Assembly (NCBI RefSeq): GCF_053078305.1
Contig: NZ_CP166879.1
Length of the DNA stretch: 64,000 bases
Strand: one strand, 5' to 3'
Part shown: positions 3,001 through 19,855 of the stretch, piece after piece
Layout: each line of letters starts with the position of its first letter
How positions within the stretch are numbered: position 1 is the stretch's first letter
Notes under the pieces: generated by a model
Seen by the model: the letters and a program-made list of their open reading frames with translations, nothing else
What the model was told of the DNA's origin: nothing
Databases searched by the model: none
Position numbers and translations under genes: made by a program

Positions 3001-3077
3001 GTTTTGGCAGTTCACGTATCAGTAACCTTCAGGCGATAGTGGTGAAGAAAAACAGCGCGGGGATCAGTATCCGCTGA
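1..3077 (+). CDS. Phage tail host-specificity protein (lambda gpJ-like), C-terminal ~1000 aa; reading frame is open to the window start, so 5' partial
   Basis: ORF 51..3077 continues in frame without a stop back to position 3; size and sequence style match lambda J-type tail tip proteins; followed by a tail-fibre gene. Confidence 0.85.
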
Positions 3078-11223: not shown

Positions 11224-13269
11224 ATGACAACAATGAATCCTTTCCTTGTGCAAAGCACACTGCCGTATCTGGCTCCCCATTTTGATCAAATTGCCAATCA
11301 TCACTATCGCCCGGCATTCGATGAGGGAATGCTGCAAAAGCGGGCAGAAATTGCTGCCATTGCGCTTAACCCGCAAACACCTGATTTCAACAATACTATT
11401 CTGGCACTGGAACAAAGCGGAGAATTACTTACCCGCGTTACCAGCGTCTTTTTTGCGATGACTGCGGCGCATACCAATGATGAATTACAGCGTCTTGACG
11501 AGCAGTTTTCCGCTGAACTGGCGGAACTGGCTAATGATATCTATCTGAATGGTGAATTATTCGCGCGGGTAGATGCTGTCTGGCAGCGCCGTGAATCTCT
11601 TGGGCTTGATAGTGAATCCATCCGCCTGGTGGAGGTGATTCATCAACGTTTTGTCCTTGCCGGAGCCAAACTTGCGCAAGCTGATAAAGCAAAATTAAAA
11701 GTATTGAATACAGAAGCTGCGACCCTGACCAGCCAGTTTAACCAGCGATTACTGGCAGCAAATAAATCCGGCGGTCTGGTTGTGAACGATATCGCGCAGC
11801 TGGCAGGAATGAGTGAGCAAGAGATTGCGCTGGCGGCAGAGGCGGCTCGCGAGAAAGGTCTGGATAACAAATGGCTGATTCCGCTGCTGAATACCACCCA
11901 ACAACCGGCGCTTGCCGAAATGCGCGATCGTGCGACGCGTGACAAACTGTTTATTGCGGGCTGGACGCGAGCGGAAAAAAATGATGCCAATGATACCCGC
12001 GCTATCATTCAACGTCTGGTGGAGATCCGTGCACAACAGGCAACACTACTTGGTTTTCCTCATTATGCCGCATGGAAAATCGCCGATCAGATGGCAAAAA
12101 CACCTGAAGCAGCACTTAACTTTATGCGGGAAATTGTTCCAGCGGCGCGTCAACGTGCGAGCGATGAATTAGCCTCCATACAGGCGGTTATCGATAAGCA
12201 GCAAGGCGGGTTTAGCGCGCAGCCGTGGGACTGGGCATTTTATGCCGAACAGGTCCGGCGGGAGAAATTTGATCTTGATGAGGCGCAGCTCAAGCCATAT
12301 TTTGAATTAAACACGGTGTTGAATGAAGGTGTATTCTGGACCGCGAATCAGCTCTTCGGTATTAAGTTTGTCGAACGTTTTGATATTCCTGTCTACCATC
12401 CTGACGTTCGTGTGTGGGAAATTTTTGATCATAATGGCGTGGGACTGGCGTTATTTTACGGTGATTTCTTCGCCCGTGATTCAAAAAGCGGCGGTGCATG
12501 GATGGGCAATTTTGTTGAGCAATCAACGCTTAATGAAACGCATCCGGTAATTTATAACGTCTGCAATTATCAGAAACCCGCTGCCGGTGAGCCTGCGTTG
12601 TTACTCTGGGATGATGTCATAACCTTATTCCATGAATTTGGTCATACGCTGCACGGCCTTTTTGCCCGCCAGCGTTATGCCACGCTCTCCGGCACCAACA
12701 CGCCGCGTGATTTTGTCGAATTTCCGTCGCAAATCAACGAACACTGGGCAACGCATCCGCAGGTATTCGCTCGCTACGCCCGGCATTATCAGAGCGGGGC
12801 AGCAATGCCTGACGAACTGCAACAGAAAATGCGTAATGCCAGCCTGTTCAATAAAGGGTATGAGATGAGCGAACTGCTTAGCGCCGCACTTCTCGATATG
12901 CGCTGGCATTGCCTGGAAGAAAACGAAGCAATGCAGGATGTCGATGAATTTGAATTGCGGGCGCTGGTGGCGGAAAATATGGATCTTCCTGCTATACCGC
13001 CACGCTATCGCAGCAGTTATTTCGCCCATATTTTTGGTGGCGGATATGCCGCAGGTTATTACGCTTATCTGTGGACGCAAATGTTGGCCGATGATGGTTA
13101 TCAGTGGTTTGTTGAGCAGGGCGGATTAACGCGTGAAAATGGGCTGCGTTTTCGCGAGGCGATCCTTTCCAGAGGTAACAGCGAAGATCTGGAACGCCTG
13201 TATCGACAATGGCGCGGTAAGGCTCCTCAGATTATGCCGATGCTGCAACATCGTGGCTTGAACATATAA
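11224..13269 (+). CDS. dcp: Dipeptidyl carboxypeptidase II (M3 metallopeptidase, HEFGH motif)
   Basis: Start at MTTMNPFL with AGGAG RBS (681 aa); HEFGHTLH zinc motif present. Confidence 0.95.
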   Translation: MTTMNPFLVQSTLPYLAPHFDQIANHHYRPAFDEGMLQKRAEIAAIALNPQTPDFNNTILALEQSGELLTRVTSVFFAMTAAHTNDELQRLDEQFSAELAELANDIYLNGELFARVDAVWQRRESLGLDSESIRLVEVIHQRFVLAGAKLAQADKAKLKVLNTEAATLTSQFNQRLLAANKSGGLVVNDIAQLAGMSEQEIALAAEAAREKGLDNKWLIPLLNTTQQPALAEMRDRATRDKLFIAGWTRAEKNDANDTRAIIQRLVEIRAQQATLLGFPHYAAWKIADQMAKTPEAALNFMREIVPAARQRASDELASIQAVIDKQQGGFSAQPWDWAFYAEQVRREKFDLDEAQLKPYFELNTVLNEGVFWTANQLFGIKFVERFDIPVYHPDVRVWEIFDHNGVGLALFYGDFFARDSKSGGAWMGNFVEQSTLNETHPVIYNVCNYQKPAAGEPALLLWDDVITLFHEFGHTLHGLFARQRYATLSGTNTPRDFVEFPSQINEHWATHPQVFARYARHYQSGAAMPDELQQKMRNASLFNKGYEMSELLSAALLDMRWHCLEENEAMQDVDEFELRALVAENMDLPAIPPRYRSSYFAHIFGGGYAAGYYAYLWTQMLADDGYQWFVEQGGLTRENGLRFREAILSRGNSEDLERLYRQWRGKAPQIMPMLQHRGLNI

Positions 13270-13280
13270 ACACCACCAAT

Positions 13281-13310
13281 GGCTGTCCTGGAGATATCGC
13301 CAGGACAGCC
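13281..13310. terminator. Stem-loop between convergent dcp and ydeJ
   Basis: 11-bp perfect inverted repeat GGCTGTCCTGG/CCAGGACAGCC; no strong T-tract. Confidence 0.35.
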
Positions 13311-13313
13311 TGG

Positions 13314-13832
13314 TTATAGCAGTAACTGCAGCAGCTGGGCGAGGGCAAACCTCACCGCTAAAGCTAATACCGTTTCGCAGTCGCCAGCAAAATGCATAAC
13401 CGCAGTGTAGTTCTGGCCTTTAATATGCCACGCGAACCAGACGGTACCCGCAGGCGTACCATCTTCACCGCCCTCCGGTCCGCCGTAGCCGGTAATGGCA
13501 ATACTGACATCAGCATCCGCACGCTCTATGGCACCGGTTGCCATTTCTGCTGCCACTTTCTCACTCACCGCAGAATATCGTTCAAGAGATTGCTGGCTTA
13601 CGCTGAGGATTTTCATCTTTGCCTGATCGGTGAAAGTAACAAAGCCTGCACCGTAAAATTTGGGTGTATCTTCAGCTGCACACAGGGCGCTAGCCAACTT
13701 ACCGCCGGTGCATGATTCGGCGGTAGTTAAGCGTAATTGATCCGCGATAAGTCTTTGACTCAACGCGGATGTCAGGTTTTCAATAGTGTCGGTATCTGCA
13801 AGTTGTACAATTTTATCTTTATTAATGTTCAC
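13314..13832 (-). CDS. ydeJ: CinA-family (competence/damage-inducible protein C-terminal domain) protein
   Basis: 172-aa ORF. Confidence 0.85.
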   Translation of the reverse strand: MNINKDKIVQLADTDTIENLTSALSQRLIADQLRLTTAESCTGGKLASALCAAEDTPKFYGAGFVTFTDQAKMKILSVSQQSLERYSAVSEKVAAEMATGAIERADADVSIAITGYGGPEGGEDGTPAGTVWFAWHIKGQNYTAVMHFAGDCETVLALAVRFALAQLLQLLL

Positions 13833-14107
13833 TGTTTTTTGTCCACGCTATTATATGTAAAGGTGATTTGCTTTTTCTGTATGCTCGTCCAATATAATAA
13901 TTTTCAAACATATAAATCCGATTATTCTGAAAATATGTTTAAGACTCTTCAATCTTCTTAACTTTAGTGAGTTAAATTCTCTGAATATTTGACAGCTAGT
14001 TGGCTGATTTTAAATGCCTTATAACAATTGGCAGTATTCTTATTTGGCAATTATAAAAATAGCAACCAGACTTAATAAGTCAAACCAAACGCAATTAAGG
14101 AGTTAGT

Positions 14108-14500
14108 ATGAAATTTCAGGCCATTGTATTAGCAAGTTTTCTTGTCATGCCTTATGCGTTGGCAGATGACCAGGGCGGTTTAAAACAGGATGCAGCGCCA
14201 CCGCCGCCTCATGCAATAGAAGATGGCTATCGCGGAACCGATGATGCAAAAAAAATGACCGTTGATTTCGCAAAAACCATGCACGATGGCGCTTCGGTTT
14301 CACTACGCGGTAATTTGATTTCTCACAAAGGAGAAGACCGTTACGTTTTTCGAGATAAGAGCGGTGAAATTAATGTCGTTATTCCTGCGGCCGTTTTTGA
14401 TGGACGAGAAGTTCAGCCGGACCAGATGATCAACATTAGCGGCAGTCTGGATAAGAAAAGCGCGCCGGCCATTGTTCGGGTCACTCATTTGCAGAAATAA
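14108..14500 (+). CDS. ydeI: YgiW/BOF-family periplasmic OB-fold stress protein
   Basis: 130-aa ORF with signal peptide. Confidence 0.85.
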
Positions 14501-14754
14501 AAATAAATTAGCCTGATGGCCTGAACTACTGGGCCATTAGGGTATTGGGTTATGCTTTTTGTCATCCTTTTATTTACGATAATGCAGAGGTAATTTACAG
14601 AATTAAACACTTTTTTATCCGCTGATTTTGTTTTAAATCACAATGTTATCTCAGAGATGACTCATAACTTCGGATTTCTATGAAAATATTGACGTAATTT
14701 TGCTTTTCTCTCGTTAGAATAGCGCGCACAAGGAACTGTGAAAAAGGAGTGGCA

Positions 14755-15645
14755 ATGATCAAGAAGACAACGGAAATTGATGCCATCTTGTTAAATCTCA
14801 ATAAGGCTATCGATGCCCACTACCAGTGGCTGGTGAGTATGTTTCACAGCGTGGTCGCGAGAGATGCCAGTAAGCCAGAAATAACGGATAACCATTCTTA
14901 TGGACTGTGCCAGTTTGGTCGGTGGATTGATCATCTGGGGCCACTCGATAACGATGAATTACCTTACGTTCGGCTAATGGATTCTGCCCATCAACATATG
15001 CATAACTGTGGTCGGGAATTAATGCTGGCTATTGTTGAAAATCACTGGCAGGACGCGCATTTCGCCGCTTTTCAGGAAGGGTTACTTTCTTTTACTGCGG
15101 CATTAACCGATTACAAAATTTATTTGCTGACAATCCGTAGCAATATGGATGTTTTGACGGGATTGCCGGGGCGTCGGGTTCTTGATGAATCCTTTGATCA
15201 TCAGTTACGCAACACTGAGCCTCTGAATCTTTATTTAATGTTGTTGGATATTGACCGATTTAAATTGGTTAATGATACCTACGGGCATTTAATCGGCGAT
15301 GTAGTATTACGCACCCTGGCAACTTACTTAGCCAGTTGGACGCGTGATTACGAAACGGTTTATCGCTACGGGGGCGAAGAATTTATCATTATTGTCAAAG
15401 CGGCTAATGATGAAGAAGCATGTCGTGCAGGTGTCAGAATTTGCCAGTTAGTCGATAACCATGCCATCACACATTCTGAAGGGCATATCAACATTACCGT
15501 GACAGCTGGTGTCAGTCGCGCATATCCTGAAGAGCCTCTGGATGTGGTCATTGGAAGAGCAGACCGGGCAATGTATGAGGGTAAGCAAACCGGAAGAAAT
15601 CGCTGCATGTTTATTGACGAACAAAATGTGATTAACCGAGTTTAA
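14755..15645 (+). CDS. dgcZ: Zinc-sensing diguanylate cyclase (CZB domain + GGEEF)
   Basis: 296 aa from MIKKTTE; RYGGEEF motif. Confidence 0.9.
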   Translation: MIKKTTEIDAILLNLNKAIDAHYQWLVSMFHSVVARDASKPEITDNHSYGLCQFGRWIDHLGPLDNDELPYVRLMDSAHQHMHNCGRELMLAIVENHWQDAHFAAFQEGLLSFTAALTDYKIYLLTIRSNMDVLTGLPGRRVLDESFDHQLRNTEPLNLYLMLLDIDRFKLVNDTYGHLIGDVVLRTLATYLASWTRDYETVYRYGGEEFIIIVKAANDEEACRAGVRICQLVDNHAITHSEGHINITVTAGVSRAYPEEPLDVVIGRADRAMYEGKQTGRNRCMFIDEQNVINRV

Positions 15646-15656
15646 GCTCCGTTTAA
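15639..15656 (+). promoter_or_regulatory. PhoP-box-like direct repeat (aGTTTA-agctc-cGTTTA) overlapping the dgcZ stop codon
   Basis: Direct hexamer repeat with 5-nt spacer, located about 35-45 bp upstream of the inferred sRNA start. Confidence 0.45.
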
Positions 15657-15679
15657 CATTCATTGAGAAAACTGATGCT

Positions 15680-15790
15680 ACTGTGTCAACGATCCGTTAT
15701 CAGTGCAGGAAAATGCCTGTTAGCGTAAAAGCAAAACACAAATCTATCCATGCAAGCATTCACCGCCGGTTTACTGGCGGTTTTTTTTTT
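15680..15790 (+). ncRNA. mgrR: Putative PhoP-dependent Hfq sRNA MgrR (about 100 nt), ending at hairpin CCGCCGG/CTGGCGG plus T10
   Basis: Strong intrinsic terminator at 15763..15790 with no coding ORF, PhoP-box upstream; 5' end approximate. Confidence 0.5.
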
Positions 15791-15807
15791 CGCCGTCATA
15801 AAAATCA

Positions 15808-15838
15808 GGCCCCTTGTACACAACTGTAACAAGGGGCC
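15808..15838 (-). terminator. Terminator hairpin of mgtS (GGCCCCTTGT ... ACAAGGGGCC, T-rich on minus strand)
   Basis: 10-bp inverted repeat just 3' of the mgtS stop on the minus strand. Confidence 0.5.
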
Positions 15839-15865
15839 GGTTAGGTGAGGGATTATCTCCGTTCA

Positions 15866-15961
15866 TTAGTCATCCCATTTGTGGCTGAAATACGCGGCCA
15901 GAAAACCAGAAAATAAAATTATTCCCAGTACGGCCATAAAAACATTCATATTACCCAGCAT
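15866..15961 (-). CDS. mgtS: 31-aa inner-membrane small protein MgtS (YneM): MLGNMNVFMAVLGIILFSGFLAAYFSHKWDD
   Basis: Translated by hand from the minus strand; not in the ORF track because of size. Confidence 0.85.
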   Translation of the reverse strand: MLGNMNVFMAVLGIILFSGFLAAYFSHKWDD

Positions 15962-16068
15962 TATTTGCCTCCGTTTATGGTGTGGTGTGTTTCCTCGCTT
16001 ACCTTAATTTTCATCTCAATGAGAAAGATATTAGCAGAGGTTATCTAAACAAAGGCTGAATCAGGCGA

Positions 16069-17065
16069 TTATTGTGATGGGGAACGGCTGTTTTTGCGAT
16101 ATTGCGAAGGAGATAATAAAAAACGTTGGTGAAAGTGATGACGCAATAACGCTGAATTGCCAAAACCCGTCAGCTCGGCAATTTTCTCGATGTTAAAAAC
16201 CGAATTTTGCAGATAATCCTGTACTCGTATTAAGCGCTCATTGAGCAGCCAGCGGGCGGGCGTCATGCCAGTTAACGCCTCAAAACGTCTTAAAAAAGTG
16301 CGCGGACTCATATTTACCCGTTCGGCGAGGGAAGACACAGTATGTGTTTGTGCCAGATTCTGCTGCAAAAAGTCGAATAAGGCACCTAACGTCTGGCTTT
16401 CACGCGGTGAGGCCATTGGGCGCGTCAGATTTTGTGGTTGATCCCCCTGGCGATGTGGCTGAATGACCAGTCGCCGGGCGACATTATTAGCAATCTCATG
16501 ACCAAAATCTTTGCGCACGATATGTAAACACAGATCGATCCCCGCGGCGCTTCCGGCGGAGGTCATCACTTGTCCTTCATCCTGATATAACACATTGTCA
16601 CTTACGCTGATTGAAGGGTAACGGTGCTGGAGTTGTTCAGTGTAGCGCCAGTGGGTGGTTGCTTTTCGCTGATGAAGAAGGCCCGCAGCAAGCAGCAAGG
16701 ACAAACACGCCAGAGCATATTGATACCAGGCGAGTACCGCGCTGGTGTGCCTCGCGCAATGACTGGCATAGCATCTCCGGCACTTTGGCATCTATTCCGC
16801 GCCAGCCAGGAATAATAATCATATCGGCGTTGGGCAATAACTCCAGTCCACCATCTGCAACCACGTGGATCCCCCCGGTGGCTTGTAGCGCACCAGGTTC
16901 TACCGCAGCAACAGCAAAACGATACCAATTATCGCCCAGTTCCGGTCGTGGCAGGCCGAATATTTCAACGGCAACGCCAAATTCAAAAGTACATAGCCCG
17001 TCATATGCCAGTGCAATGACCAGCGGACGTTGTAACGTTGTCATCATTTTGCTCATTTCTGGCAT
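16069..17065 (-). pseudogene. GlxA-family regulator (DJ-1/PfpI domain + AraC HTH) disrupted by a frameshift
   Basis: N-terminal DJ-1/PfpI ORF (16637..17065) and C-terminal AraC-HTH ORF (16069..16791) overlap in different frames; a perfect 7-bp tandem duplication GCAGCAA at 16685..16698 sits exactly at the frame break. Confidence 0.8.
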
Positions 17066-17138
17066 ATCGAGAGGCGGTCAGTGAAAGGTAGATTAGTTAC
17101 ATTATTGTTAACACAACAAACCAAAAGGACAAAGCAAT

Positions 17139-17534
17139 ATGCGTTATGTCACTGAATTTACCACAGCGAAGCCAGAAGTTGCTGAGGCGCATTTTCTCGC
17201 GCGCTTGAGTGTCGAAACAGATTGCGCCGATGTTCATGACTCTCTGGCTTATATTGGCGATGATTTCGTTTTACTTCATGTGGTTGGACGTGAAGAGGAC
17301 TTCGCGCGTCGGCATATCCCAGGCGCTCTCCATTTACCCCATAAGCAAATGACCGCAGAAAGAATGGCCGAATGGCCCGACGATACGCTATTTGTGGTGT
17401 ATTGCGCGGGGCCACATTGTAACGGTGCAGACCGTGCGGCACTCAAACTGGCTCGACTCGGAAAGCCGGTTAAAATCATGCTCGGCGGGATAACCGGCTG
17501 GGAAGATGAAGGCTATGCCTTTGCCTCAGAATAA
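17139..17534 (+). CDS. Single-domain rhodanese-like sulfurtransferase
   Basis: 131-aa ORF with Cys-containing loop VVYCAGPHCNGADR; divergent from the GlxA-type regulator. Confidence 0.75.
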   Translation: MRYVTEFTTAKPEVAEAHFLARLSVETDCADVHDSLAYIGDDFVLLHVVGREEDFARRHIPGALHLPHKQMTAERMAEWPDDTLFVVYCAGPHCNGADRAALKLARLGKPVKIMLGGITGWEDEGYAFASE

Positions 17535-17574
17535 TGATTAGCGAAGCCGTGCCAGTAGTGGAACGGCACGAACG

Positions 17575-18762
17575 TCAACAGAGTGCTGGTTGCCTCTGGG
17601 GTCTGGCGTTAATACCTTTTAACATCAGCGCCCACGCGGCAATGATGACTAACGCCAGAATGATAAACAGCGAAGACGACGGGAGAGTGGTAAGTACAAC
17701 ACCACTCACTAATGGATTTACCGCTGCGCCCAACCAGCCTAAAGACTGGGCGGAAAAATAGCTGGCTTTCATTCCTGGCGGCGCAATATGGTCAATCAAC
17801 ATATACTCGCCCGGCGCATAAATGATTTCACCGACAGTAAATACCGCAGCTGACATACCCCACAATAGCAGGCTGTTGCCGGAAAAAATAAAACCGACCA
17901 GACCGATGACGAAACAGAGGGTGCCAGCTGTCATCAGCGCGCGGATGTTAGCCGGGTTAAGGCGGCGGCCCACGGAATATTGCAACGTAACCACCATGGC
18001 AGCATTCACCGGAAGAACAACCGCGACCACCTTTTCGGCAAAATCCCCATCAGCAATCACCATCACATATTGTGAGATGCATGAAGCAAATGCGCCACTA
18101 ACAAAAGAAGCCAGAAAGCCAGAGCAGGTAAACCACAACAGTGCTTTATCTTGTAATAAAACTTTCGGCGACCAGACACTGTCTGTTTCCGTGGCGATGA
18201 TTTTCTCGCTGCGCTTTACCCAAATTTGAATGAAAAGCATGGGAAACGCGGAACAGATAGCTGCCAGCCAAAAGGGCAGATTGATGCTCTGCATCACCAA
18301 CAGCGTGCCGAGCGGCGGGCCGACGGTCCAGCCAATATTGAGCATGGTGTAGTTGATCGAGAAGATCTTCGTTTTGCTGGTGGATGAAAGATTGTCGGCA
18401 AACCAGGCTTTCAACACTGTGGCAAAAACGGAATAGGCGCAGTTGATGAGTGCGAAAAAAAGTACCACCAGCGTGACGCTGTCCACCAGGGGAATAGCAA
18501 TAAAACCGCTGGCGAAGGCCGTAATTGCCAGTAACATATAGCGTTTCTTGTCGAACTTATCCGCCAGGATACCAAAACCGAGGCTAAAAACGACGCCAAT
18601 AGTGAGCGCAATTGTCATCGCATAACCAATGAGATCGACACTCAGGCTGTACTGACGACTTAAGTAAATAGTCATAAATGGCAGCGTGGCGCCGCGTCCG
18701 ATAGTTAATAACAATGACGAGGCGAGAAGGGCGCAAGTAGAGCGTCTCAGAGATAAGTTCAT
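17575..18762 (-). CDS. ydeE: MFS efflux transporter
   Basis: 395-aa 12-TM ORF. Confidence 0.85.
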   Translation of the reverse strand: MNLSLRRSTCALLASSLLLTIGRGATLPFMTIYLSRQYSLSVDLIGYAMTIALTIGVVFSLGFGILADKFDKKRYMLLAITAFASGFIAIPLVDSVTLVVLFFALINCAYSVFATVLKAWFADNLSSTSKTKIFSINYTMLNIGWTVGPPLGTLLVMQSINLPFWLAAICSAFPMLFIQIWVKRSEKIIATETDSVWSPKVLLQDKALLWFTCSGFLASFVSGAFASCISQYVMVIADGDFAEKVVAVVLPVNAAMVVTLQYSVGRRLNPANIRALMTAGTLCFVIGLVGFIFSGNSLLLWGMSAAVFTVGEIIYAPGEYMLIDHIAPPGMKASYFSAQSLGWLGAAVNPLVSGVVLTTLPSSSLFIILALVIIAAWALMLKGINARPQRQPALC

Positions 18763-18955
18763 TTGGCTGTCCGACAGTGCATTTCGTTATGTTTTGTTTT
18801 GGAGATGTAAAGAAATAGCATGGCAAAAATCCGAAGTATAGCGACTTATTTGCCATTAATGCTGTGGTAAACGGTGATTAATGAATGAACTGTTAAATAA
18901 AAGTAAATTCAGCTAAGTTGATTGCTGACAAAAAATGAAATTCAGAGGCGGGAAA

Positions 18956-19855
18956 ATGTCGCGGAAAGATGGGTTGTTGGCGCTACTAGTCGTCGTTGTA
19001 TGGGGGCTTAATTTTGTGGTCATCAAAGTGGGGCTTCATAACATGCCACCGCTGATGCTGGCCGGTTTGCGCTTTATGCTGGTCGCCTTCCCGGCAATCT
19101 TTTTCGTGGCACGACCAAAAGTACCGCTGAATTTACTGCTGGGGTATGGTTTAACCATCAGTTTTGCACAGTTTGCCTTTCTCTTCTGCGCCATTAACTT
19201 CGGTATGCCGGCTGGACTGGCCTCGCTGGTCTTACAGGCTCAGGCGTTTTTTACTATCGTGCTCGGTGCTTTTACTTTTGGCGAACGGCTGCACGGTAAG
19301 CAACTGGCGGGGATTGCGTTAGCGATTTTTGGCGTACTGGTGTTAATCGAAGATAGCTTTAACGGTCAGCATGTGGCGATGCTCGGTTTTATGTTGACTC
19401 TGGCAGCGGCATTTAGTTGGGCGAGTGGCAATATCTTCAACAAAAAGATCATGTCTCATTCATCCCGTCCGGCGGTAATGTCTCTGGTCGTCTGGAGCGC
19501 ATTAATCCCGATAATTCCGTTTTTTGTCGCCTCGCTCATTCTCGATGGCTCCGGAAAAATGATTCACAGTCTGGTCACTATCGACATGACCACCATTCTG
19601 GCGTTGATGTATCTGGCATTTGTAGCGACGATAGTTGGCTACGGGATTTGGGGTACGCTGCTTGGACGCTATGAAACATGGCGTGTCGCACCATTATCAT
19701 TACTGGTGCCGGTAGTCGGTCTGGCAAGTGCAGCGTTACTGCTGGATGAACGCTTAACGGGTCTGCAATTTTTCGGCGCGGTGCTCATTATGACCGGGCT
19801 GTATATCAATGTATTTGGTTTGCAGTGGCGTAAAGCGGTGAAGGTAAGAGGTTAA
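18956..19855 (+). CDS. eamA: Cysteine/O-acetylserine exporter (DMT family)
   Basis: 299 aa from MSRKDGLLALLVVVVWGLNFVV. Confidence 0.9.
   Translation: MSRKDGLLALLVVVVWGLNFVVIKVGLHNMPPLMLAGLRFMLVAFPAIFFVARPKVPLNLLLGYGLTISFAQFAFLFCAINFGMPAGLASLVLQAQAFFTIVLGAFTFGERLHGKQLAGIALAIFGVLVLIEDSFNGQHVAMLGFMLTLAAAFSWASGNIFNKKIMSHSSRPAVMSLVVWSALIPIIPFFVASLILDGSGKMIHSLVTIDMTTILALMYLAFVATIVGYGIWGTLLGRYETWRVAPLSLLVPVVGLASAALLLDERLTGLQFFGAVLIMTGLYINVFGLQWRKAVKVRG

What the first reader, a model, noticed from the sequence alone, without database searches (positions are those of the whole stretch)
15639..15961. Convergent PhoP-type small genes: MgrR-like sRNA and 31-aa MgtS, both missed by the ORF track
A direct repeat GTTTA-N6-GTTTA overlaps the dgcZ stop codon. 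About 100 nt downstream is a strong intrinsic terminator (CCGCCGG hairpin plus ten T) with no coding frame, as expected for MgrR. On the opposite strand, 15866..15961 encodes exactly MLGNMNVFMAVLGIILFSGFLAAYFSHKWDD (MgtS), with its own hairpin terminator and a TGTTTA half-site 12 bp upstream of a TAATAT -10 element.
Basis: partly seen in the sequence, partly recalled or inferred. Interest (0 to 1): 0.4.

Follow-up and report, generated by a model that had tools for sequence, protein, structure and literature searches.

The report
Known mgrR–mgtS magnesium-stress small-gene pair

Summary

- **MgrR:** Window 15691-15790 (+) is the sRNA MgrR. It hits Rfam RF01407 at 276 bits. It differs from K-12 mgrR b4698 by one substitution and a longer terminal T-run.
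- **MgtS:** 15866-15961 (-) encodes MgtS, with nucleotide sequence identical to K-12 b4599. It scores 80.6 bits against NCBIfam NF033842.
- **mgrR promoter:** GTTTA-N6-GTTTA at 15640-15655 overlaps the dgcZ stop codon. It coincides with the published PhoP box at -52..-36.
- **mgtS promoter:** TGTTTA lies exactly 12 nt upstream of the TAATAT -10 hexamer.

1. The region around the MgrR terminator is not free of coding sequence. mgtT (15771-15866, -) overlaps the mgtS stop and the last 20 nt of MgrR.
2. The "mgtS terminator" hairpin lies inside mgtT.
3. A published 17-codon leader ORF (CDS58, 15961-16014, -) abuts the mgtS start.

Small extras:

- The window's ten-T run is rare; about 85% of E. 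coli records have eight. It changes the MgtT C-terminus.
- A third, degenerate PhoP half-site (CATTGA, 15661-15666) sits 12 nt from the -10 hexamer in all 33 distinct promoters compared.

The locus is already known, so interest is low.

The parts
15639..15655 (+). PhoP box of the mgrR promoter as published (AGTTTA-AGCTC-CGTTTA, -52..-36). It overlaps the dgcZ stop codon (15643-15645) and lies 23 nt upstream of the -10 hexamer.
   Evidence: The position -52..-36 is attributed to Moon and Gottesman 2009 in PMC8313858. The 23-nt spacing matches architecture III of Zwir 2012 (PMC3335776).
15650..15666 (+). Overlapping alternative PhoP box (CGTTTA-ACATT-CATTGA). It shares the invariant GTTTA arm, and its proximal arm ends 12 nt from the -10 hexamer.
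   Evidence: in 33 of 33 distinct mgrR promoters from about 10 genera, the arm (C/T)ATTGA is 11 nt after (C/T)GTTTA and exactly 12 nt before TAnnnT. ATTGA-type arms occur in the PhoP boxes that Zwir 2012 tabulates, such as pipD. Function is inferred.
15676..15684 (+). Extended -10 element of mgrR (TGcTACTGT; hexamer 15679-15684).
   Evidence: TG-n-TAnnnT is conserved across genera. It lies 7 nt upstream of the K-12 annotated 5' end.
15691..15790 (+). MgrR small RNA. It comprises a 5' stem-loop (15695-15725), a single-stranded conserved target-pairing region (about 15731-15760) and an intrinsic terminator stem (15762-15781) with a U-tail (15781-15790).
   Evidence: Rfam RF01407 at 276 bits. K-12 mgrR b4698 mapped through alignment A1. 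Fold -25.9 kcal/mol, z -2.6. Terminator scan. Cross-genus conservation.
15771..15866 (-). mgtT small ORF, 31 aa here (MNGDNPSPNRPLVTVVYKGPDFYDGEKKNRQ). Its ATG overlaps the mgtS stop (TAATGA). Its last 20 nt are antisense to the MgrR terminator.
   Evidence: Annotated in K-12 (b4775, 34 aa) and in RefSeq E. coli genomes. Pfam PF23498 at 80.4 bits over residues 1-28. Translation shown in K-12 by Ribo-RET with tagging (10.1101/511675) and by PIRT-Seq (PMC12350097).
15797..15838 (-). Hairpin (15808-15838) plus U-tract after mgtS. It is a likely intrinsic terminator or attenuator of the mgtS transcript and lies inside mgtT.
   Evidence: -22.6 kcal/mol, then UGAUUUUUAU. The scanner missed it because of a bulge. 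The GC-rich stem arms are retained wherever the region could be read as an mgtT-like ORF. Terminator function is inferred.
15866..15961 (-). mgtS (yneM), a 31-aa protein with a single hydrophobic helix. GGAGG lies 6 nt upstream of the ATG. The stop TAA is followed in frame by TGA.
   Evidence: ORF. (nucleotides identical to K-12). (NF033842 equivalog, 80.6 bits against a cut-off of 35). (PF22865, 88.2 bits). (conserved across genera).
15961..16014 (-). 17-codon leader ORF (MKIKVSEETHHTINGGK). Its TAA overlaps the mgtS ATG (TAATG). It equals CDS58 of the PIRT-Seq study.
   Evidence: coordinates. (supplement of PMC12350097 gives the identical DNA and peptide for CDS58). (weak SPA-tag signal). 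Not conserved outside E. coli in the loci compared.
16028..16062 (-). mgtS promoter. The PhoP box GATTCA-GCCTT-TGTTTA (16062->16046) is followed by a 12-nt spacer and the -10 hexamer TAATAT (16033->16028).
   Evidence: The box and the 12-nt spacing are visible in the cross-genus upstream sequences. This is architecture I of Zwir 2012. PhoQ/PhoP dependence of mgtS/yneM was shown in K-12 (PMC3536696; PMC11429745).

Best explanation
This is the E. coli dgcZ / mgrR / mgtT-mgtS locus, a pair of convergent transcription units activated by PhoQ/PhoP when magnesium is low.

+ strand. Phospho-PhoP binds phased GTTTA-type half-sites at 15639-15666 and activates an extended -10 promoter (TGcTACTGT). Transcription starts at 15691 and ends at the hairpin plus U-tail (15762-15790). 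The product is MgrR, an Hfq-dependent sRNA of about 98-100 nt. Its invariant single-stranded middle pairs with target mRNAs; published targets are eptB, ygdQ, soxS and pitA.

- strand. A PhoP box 12 nt upstream of TAATAT drives one short mRNA with three serially overlapping small ORFs.
- The leader ORF CDS58 has 17 codons.
- mgtS encodes a 31-aa inner-membrane protein. It protects the Mg2+ importer MgtA from FtsH and acts on the PitA phosphate symporter.
- mgtT has 31 codons here and 34 in K-12, and has no known phenotype.

The hairpin plus U-tract after mgtS probably stops most transcripts. mgtT is read from those that continue into the antisense of the MgrR terminator.

Basis. Shown here: sequence identity, model matches, coordinates, spacings and conservation. 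Taken from the literature on K-12 and Salmonella: PhoP dependence, Hfq binding, targets and protein functions. Inferred: which half-site pair PhoP uses, and termination at the mgtS hairpin.
For: - Rfam RF01407 hit at 276 bits, full model length.
- K-12 annotation of mgrR, mgtS and mgtT in the same order and orientation. The window and K-12 are near-identical across the aligned locus as far as the mgtS PhoP box.
- 5,411 of 5,418 matching E. coli records carry the whole 601-nt region.
- MgtS passes the NCBIfam equivalog and Pfam models. MgtT matches Pfam PF23498.
- The MgrR terminator was found by scan and by fold.
- The PhoP repeat is enriched over shuffles and coincides with the published -52..-36 site.
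- The mgtS box-to-(-10) spacing of 12 nt equals architecture I.
- An MgtS ORF convergent with MgrR, 74-113 nt from its 3' end, was found at 29 of the 34 MgrR copies recovered from the species-representative genomes, about 10 genera.
- Literature: mgrR and yneM are directly PhoP-activated (PMC3536696). mgtS-mgtT is a PhoQP-dependent operon (PMC11429745). MgtS acts on MgtA and PitA (PMC10710835; PMC10117436). MgrR targets are eptB, soxS, ygdQ and pitA (PMC8313858).
Against: Nothing contradicts the identification.

- No expression data exist for this strain.
- The T-run is 10 here against 8 in K-12. The exact 90-nt sequence with 10 T was found in only 1 of 5,416 matching records, so it may be a rare allele or a homopolymer sequencing error.
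- The primary MgrR and MgtS papers (Moon and Gottesman 2009; Wang 2017; Yin 2019) are not held in the library. They are cited only through other papers.
Confidence: 0.96

Rival explanations
1. The functional, ancestral PhoP box of mgrR is CGTTTA-N5-CATTGA (15650-15666, 12 nt from the -10 hexamer, architecture I). It is not the reader's and the published AGTTTA-N5-CGTTTA (15639-15655, 23 nt from the -10 hexamer, architecture III). Alternatively, all three phased half-sites are used. This rival concerns the mechanism, not the identity of the locus.
For: -: across 33 distinct promoters the middle arm GTTTA is invariant.
- The proximal arm is nearly invariant: TT in 33/33, A at position 2 in 31/33, G at position 5 in 30/33. 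It is always exactly 12 nt from TAnnnT.
- The distal arm is variable. AGTTTA appears only in the window, K-12 and E. whittamii, and there is no recognisable arm in about 8 more distant loci.
- The mgtS promoter next door uses the 12-nt arrangement.
- Zwir 2012 lists ATTGA-type arms in its table of PhoP boxes and shows that 12-nt and 21-23-nt spacings are both used.
Against: - CATTGA matches only 3 of 6 consensus positions, whereas the published pair matches 10 of 12.
- Both the distal and the proximal arm average 3.0/6 across taxa.
- Conservation of CATTGA could reflect RNA polymerase contacts rather than PhoP.
- No footprint was available to me.
Confidence: 0.4
2. mgtT is translated but is not a conserved functional protein. 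What is conserved under it is RNA-level signal: the tandem mgtS stops TAA-TGA, the mgtS terminator hairpin, and the MgrR terminator on the other strand.
For: -: the ORF starting at the conserved T(A/G)ATGA is 8-9 codons in 7 loci and 14 codons in 8 Citrobacter-type loci. It is 24-45 codons in others and 60-83 in three.
- Only Escherichia keeps about 30-34 codons.
- The conserved residues RPLV...KGP are the GC-rich arms of the hairpin.
- The C-terminus changes with T-run length: KKPPVNRR with 8 T, KKNRQ with 10 T. With 9 T, PGAP calls the gene frameshifted.
- Deletion and overexpression of mgtT gave no phenotype (PMC11429745).
Against: - Ribosome profiling, SPA-tag immunoblots and PIRT-Seq all detect translation in K-12.
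- About 85% of E. coli records keep the exact K-12 88-nt sequence.
- A Pfam family exists for it.
Confidence: 0.45
3. The 15691-15790 RNA is only the 3' untranslated tail and terminator of the dgcZ mRNA, not an independent gene.
For: No other terminator lies between the dgcZ stop (15645) and 15762. dgcZ transcripts probably do end at the same hairpin.
Against: - A conserved promoter with a PhoP box and an extended -10 element sits immediately upstream, at fixed spacing, in about 10 genera.
- K-12 annotates a separate 98-nt ncRNA.
- The upstream flank differs between genera while the promoter and the sRNA are retained.
- mgrR-lacZ fusions and Northern blots show PhoP-dependent expression (PMC3536696).
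Confidence: 0.02

Closest known systems
E. coli K-12 mgrR (b4698), equivalent to Rfam RF01407 STnc560, a PhoP-activated Hfq-dependent sRNA
   Same: Same position, strand and neighbours. Across the 98 nt there is a single substitution (C15695 in place of T). The terminator stem, the promoter elements and the PhoP box position are the same.
   Different: The T-run is 10 instead of 8. The Rfam model (214 positions) is much wider than the RNA: it starts 34 nt upstream of the start site and runs through mgtT to the mgtS stop codon, so the Rfam coordinates (15657-15872) overstate the gene.
E. coli K-12 mgtS / yneM (b4599), equivalent to NCBIfam NF033842 and Pfam PF22865
   Same: Identical coding sequence, Shine-Dalgarno sequence, -10 hexamer and 12-nt box spacing.
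   Different: The proximal PhoP arm is TGTTTA here and CGTTTA in K-12. Upstream, K-12 goes directly to ydeE, whereas the window carries ftrA and a rhodanese-domain gene. The two sequences diverge just beyond the distal arm of the box.
E. coli K-12 mgtT (b4775, Pfam PF23498) and the leader ORF CDS58 of PIRT-Seq
   Same: The first 28 residues of MgtT are identical, with the same ATGA overlap with mgtS. The CDS58 DNA is identical.
   Different: The MgtT C-terminus is KKNRQ (31 aa) instead of KKPPVNRR (34 aa), because of two extra A/T in the homopolymer shared with the MgrR terminator.
PhoP-activated promoter architectures I and III (Zwir et al. 2012, Salmonella)
   Same: mgtS has a direct-orientation box 12 nt from the -10 hexamer, which is architecture I. 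The published mgrR box is 23 nt from the -10 hexamer, which is architecture III as in rstA.
   Different: mgrR additionally has a conserved degenerate arm at the architecture-I position, giving three phased half-sites. Neither promoter is among those analysed in that paper (no occurrence of yneM or STnc560).

Membership tests
MgrR sRNA (Rfam RF01407 STnc560 / E. coli mgrR) | Match to the covariance model above the curated gathering score | tested here: met
   276.1 bits against 55, E 4.6e-64, model positions 1-214 of 214.
MgrR sRNA (Rfam RF01407 STnc560 / E. coli mgrR) | Orthologous position: downstream of dgcZ on the same strand, convergent with mgtS | tested here: met
   K-12 annotation and alignment A1. 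A convergent MgtS ORF was found at 29 of 34 recovered MgrR copies.
MgrR sRNA (Rfam RF01407 STnc560 / E. coli mgrR) | Rho-independent terminator with a long U-tail (3' module of Hfq-dependent sRNAs) | tested here: met
   Eight-pair stem with 6 GC pairs, followed by 10 T. The stem is kept across genera, with G-U changes and one compensatory pair.
MgrR sRNA (Rfam RF01407 STnc560 / E. coli mgrR) | Invariant single-stranded target-pairing region | tested here: met
   Columns around AAAACACAAATCTATCCATGCAAGC are identical in 23 aligned sequences and unpaired in the fold. Caveat: 19 of these bases were the search pattern, so only the flanking bases count as independent evidence.
MgrR sRNA (Rfam RF01407 STnc560 / E. 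coli mgrR) | PhoP-dependent induction in low Mg2+, Hfq binding and repression of eptB/pitA | not testable with these tools
   Known for K-12 and Salmonella from the literature only.
MgtS small protein (NCBIfam NF033842 equivalog, Pfam PF22865) | Profile match above the curated cut-off over the full length | tested here: met
   NF033842 at 80.6 bits (cut-off 35), residues 1-31 of 31. PF22865 at 88.2 bits (cut-off 27).
MgtS small protein (NCBIfam NF033842 equivalog, Pfam PF22865) | 31-aa ORF with a ribosome-binding site and one hydrophobic helix | tested here: met
   ORF 15866-15961 with GGAGG 6 nt upstream of the ATG. The hydrophobic run VFMAVLGIILFSGFLAAYF is read directly from the sequence.
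MgtS small protein (NCBIfam NF033842 equivalog, Pfam PF22865) | Stabilises MgtA against FtsH and interacts with PitA | not testable with these tools
   Literature only.
MgtT small protein (Pfam PF23498) | Profile match, and a start codon overlapping the mgtS stop | tested here: met
   80.4 bits (cut-off 27), but only profile positions 1-28 of 34. The ATGA overlap is present. The C-terminal 3-6 residues differ from K-12.
MgtT small protein (Pfam PF23498) | ORF conserved beyond Escherichia, as expected of a constrained protein | tested here: not met
   ORF length ranges from 8 to 83 codons across genera. NCBIfam has no model that matches it.
PhoP-activated promoter (PhoP box (T/G)GTTTA-N5-(T/G)GTTTA at a permitted distance from the -10 hexamer) | Direct-repeat box 12 nt or 21-23 nt upstream of a -10 hexamer | tested here: met
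   mgrR: box 15639-15655, 23 nt from TACTGT, plus an overlapping box 15650-15666 at 12 nt. mgtS: box 16062-16046, 12 nt from TAATAT.
PhoP-activated promoter (PhoP box (T/G)GTTTA-N5-(T/G)GTTTA at a permitted distance from the -10 hexamer) | PhoP binding and PhoP-dependent transcription | not testable with these tools
   Reported for the K-12 mgrR and yneM fusions and for mgtS/mgtT reporters.

The most novel reading that the evidence does not exclude
Two modest refinements are not excluded.

(a) The ancestral PhoP site of mgrR may be the CGTTTA-N5-CATTGA pair, fixed 12 nt from the -10 hexamer in every genus examined. The published upstream arm would then be an Escherichia-specific addition, and mgrR would be a three-half-site promoter.

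(b) The MgtT C-terminus may be set by the length of a slippage-prone homopolymer that is also the Hfq-binding U-tail of MgrR on the other strand. One tract would then couple variation in an sRNA 3' end to variation in a small protein.
Probability: 0.35. Interest if true: 0.2.

Novelty: already known. Interest (0 to 1): 0.08.

Why it matters
It matters little beyond annotation quality. The locus is a textbook part of the enterobacterial low-magnesium response, with MgrR remodelling LPS and phosphate uptake and MgtS raising intracellular Mg2+.

The useful outcome is a corrected map for this window. The span between dgcZ and ftrA holds one sRNA and three overlapping small ORFs, all below normal gene-caller thresholds. 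The Rfam hit boundaries should not be taken as the RNA boundaries.

The cross-genus comparison gives a testable suggestion about which PhoP half-sites drive mgrR. It also gives a reason to be cautious about MgtT as a conserved protein.

Tried and rejected
- I tried to read the primary papers: Moon and Gottesman 2009 (PMID 19889087, PMC2841474), Yin 2019 (PMC6351178), Wang 2017 (PMC5465934) and Kato 1999 (PMC94065). None is held. The published PhoP box position and the protein functions are therefore cited second-hand.
- A literature search linking the name STnc560 to MgrR found nothing. The equivalence rests on the Rfam hit enclosing the K-12 mgrR coordinates.
- RNAalifold on 23 MgrR sequences recovered only the terminator stem. 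MAFFT misaligned the divergent 5' stem-loop, so I make no covariation claim for that stem.
- The simple terminator scan did not flag the mgtS hairpin because of a bulge. It was confirmed by folding instead.
- The MgrR terminator is probably not bidirectional. On the minus strand the stem is followed by GAAUGCUUGC, with no U-run.
- I read CATTGA as a possible -35 element and rejected this. TTGAGA lies only 10 nt from the -10 hexamer, which is too close.
- Counting T-run alleles from identity bands was confounded by 63 partial matches. I used the ranked list and an evenly spaced sample of 60 records instead.
Full report
**What is in the sequence**

- dgcZ ends with GTT TAA at 15640-15645. GTTTA-AGCTCC-GTTTA occupies 15640-15655.
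- That pattern occurs three times in the 64-kb window, against 0.20 expected from dinucleotide-preserving shuffles.
- The hairpin ACCGCCGG/CTGGCGGT (15762-15781) is followed by exactly ten T (15781-15790). It is the only terminator-like site the scanner reports in 15400-16200.
- On the minus strand, 15866-15961 translates to MLGNMNVFMAVLGIILFSGFLAAYFSHKWDD.
- Upstream of that ORF, TGTTTA (16051->16046) is separated by 12 nt from TAATAT (16033->16028).

**Identity of the two genes**

MgrR:
- An Rfam search of 13000-19000 returns a single hit, RF01407 (STnc560, Hfq-binding RNA), at 15657-15872 (+). It scores 276 bits against a gathering score of 55.
- The K-12 MG1655 record annotates, in the same order and orientation, dgcZ, mgrR (b4698, ncRNA, 98 nt), mgtT (b4775) and mgtS (b4599).
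- Aligned to the window, K-12 mgrR maps to 15691-15788 on the + strand. There is one substitution (C15695 for T) and eight T instead of ten.
- The candidate RNA folds into a 5' stem-loop, an open middle and the terminator (-25.9 kcal/mol, z -2.6).
- The Rfam model is much wider than the RNA. It begins 34 nt before the start site and runs to the mgtS stop codon, so its coordinates should not be used as gene boundaries.

MgtS:
- mgtS is identical in nucleotide sequence to K-12.
- It passes the NCBIfam equivalog NF033842 (80.6 bits, cut-off 35) and Pfam PF22865 (88.2 bits).

Distribution: the 601-nt region is present nearly full-length in 5,411 of the 5,418 matching complete E. coli records. Identity is 95-99.7%.

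- **mgtT.** The minus strand opposite the MgrR terminator is coding. mgtT starts at the ATG that overlaps the mgtS stop (TAATGA, 15866) and ends at 15771. Its last 20 nt are antisense to the MgrR 3' end. It matches Pfam PF23498 over residues 1-28.
- **Evidence that mgtT is translated.** In K-12, MgtT was found by ribosome profiling with stalled initiation complexes and confirmed by tagging (10.1101/511675). PIRT-Seq detected it again (PMC12350097). It is co-regulated with mgtS by PhoQP, but showed no deletion or overexpression phenotype (PMC11429745).
- **The hairpin.** Full-length MgtT therefore requires read-through of this hairpin (inference).
- **The leader ORF.** The mgtS leader carries a 17-codon ORF (15961-16014, MKIKVSEETHHTINGGK) whose TAA overlaps the mgtS ATG. 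It is identical to CDS58 of the PIRT-Seq study, which gave a weak tagged signal.

The minus-strand unit is therefore three serially overlapping small ORFs.

**How it works**

From the literature:
- mgrR and yneM (mgtS) are directly PhoP-activated (PMC3536696).
- MgrR is one of the most abundant Hfq-bound sRNAs under PhoP-inducing conditions in Salmonella (PMC12721325).
- MgrR represses eptB, ygdQ, soxS and pitA (PMC8313858).
- MgtS protects MgtA from FtsH and acts on PitA, raising intracellular Mg2+ (PMC10710835; PMC10117436).

From the sequence:
- The mgtS promoter has a direct-orientation box 12 nt from its -10 hexamer. This is Zwir's architecture I (PMC3335776).
- For mgrR, the published motif at -52..-36 (cited in PMC8313858) equals 15639-15655. 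It lies 23 nt from the -10 hexamer TACTGT, which is architecture III.

**Cross-genus comparison**

A scan of species-representative genomes with a 19-nt MgrR core found 34 stretches.

- **Synteny.** They come from Escherichia, Citrobacter, Salmonella, Enterobacter, Kosakonia, Phytobacter, Pluralibacter, Lelliottia, Huaxiibacter and unnamed Enterobacteriaceae. A convergent MgtS ORF, 74-113 nt from the MgrR 3' end, was found at 29 of the 34 MgrR copies.
- **mgrR promoter.** In 33 distinct promoters the middle arm GTTTA is invariant. A third arm, (C/T)ATTGA, follows at the 11-nt period and is always exactly 12 nt from a TAnnnT hexamer. The upstream arm used in the published box is variable and is AGTTTA only in some Escherichia. 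ATTGA-type arms occur in the PhoP boxes tabulated by Zwir 2012. It is therefore plausible (my estimate 0.4) that the conserved functional pair is 15650-15666, or that three phased half-sites are used. This is inference and needs a footprint.
- **mgtT.** The ORF is not conserved in length outside Escherichia. It is 8-9 codons in seven loci, 14 in eight Citrobacter-type loci, and up to 83 elsewhere. Its conserved residues coincide with the GC arms of the hairpin. The conserved T(A/G)ATGA is also a pair of in-frame mgtS stop codons.

**The ten-T run**

- K-12 and 51 of 60 evenly sampled E. coli records have the exact 88-nt K-12 sequence with eight T. In all, 4,670 of 5,416 records are at least 99% identical to it.
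- Nine T and seven T occur at a few percent.
- The window's 90-nt sequence with ten T is matched exactly and in full by only one record.
- The run is shared with mgtT on the other strand, so its length sets the MgtT C-terminus. Eight T gives KKPPVNRR. Ten T gives KKNRQ. With nine T, PGAP labels the gene frameshifted.
- One K-12 MG1655 assembly shows nine T (H22), so some of this variation is probably homopolymer sequencing error.

**Verdict**

The finding is a correct recognition of a known locus from raw sequence. It is already known, so interest is low. The added value is a corrected, complete map of the small genes and promoters, plus two minor testable refinements.

Noticed in passing
window 15961-16014 (-): A 17-codon leader ORF (MKIKVSEETHHTINGGK) abuts mgtS with a TAATG overlap. 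It is identical to the published PIRT-Seq CDS58. The ATG is absent in E. albertii and Citrobacter, so among the loci compared it looks specific to E. coli and its closest relatives.
   Followed up: yes
window 15993-16005 (-): A 13-nt motif AAGGTAAGnGAGG in the mgtS 5' leader is conserved across most of the genera compared, with Salmonella as the clear exception. The surrounding leader varies. It contains two Shine-Dalgarno-like elements about 30-45 nt upstream of the real start. Its function is unknown to me.
   Followed up: no
window about 16691-16694 (ftrA, minus strand; ORFs 16069-16791 and 16637-17065): ftrA carries a 4-bp TGCT tandem duplication relative to strain PapRG-06-5. This splits the 323-codon gene into two overlapping frames, so it is a likely pseudogene or a sequencing error.
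   Followed up: partly
window 16063-17540, against K-12 L002 2520-2646: K-12 lacks ftrA and the rhodanese-domain gene that lie between mgtS and ydeE in the window. The two sequences diverge immediately beyond the distal arm of the mgtS PhoP box. The proximal arm is TGTTTA here and CGTTTA in K-12.
   Followed up: partly
window 50398-50413 (+) and 51401-51416 (-): Two further exact GTTTA-N6-GTTTA matches lie in AT-rich intergenic DNA of a fimbrial operon next to hipA. One is upstream of a fimA-like gene; the other is between that gene and the chaperone gene. They may be PhoP boxes or chance matches.
   Followed up: partly
window 15781-15790; H22 (NZ_CP032667.1): The MgrR terminator T-run varies from 7 to 10 among E. 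coli assemblies. A K-12 MG1655 assembly shows 9 T against 8 in the reference, which suggests that homopolymer sequencing errors contribute. PGAP then marks mgtT as frameshifted.
   Followed up: partly
L009 (Enterobacteriaceae bacterium RIT691), 1443-1461 and 3037-3055: This genome has two MgrR copies about 1.6 kb apart. They share the seed and terminator but have different 5' parts and promoters. Only one is paired with mgtS, and the other lacks the conserved GTTTA arm.
   Followed up: no
L006 (Caldithrix MAG SMXE01000224.1) and L035 (Chryseobacterium sp. 18061): Contigs filed under non-enterobacterial names carry enterobacterial mgrR-mgtS sequence. L006 matches K-12 over the parts compared, and L035 resembles Citrobacter sp. 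18056. This points to contamination or mis-binning in those assemblies.
   Followed up: no
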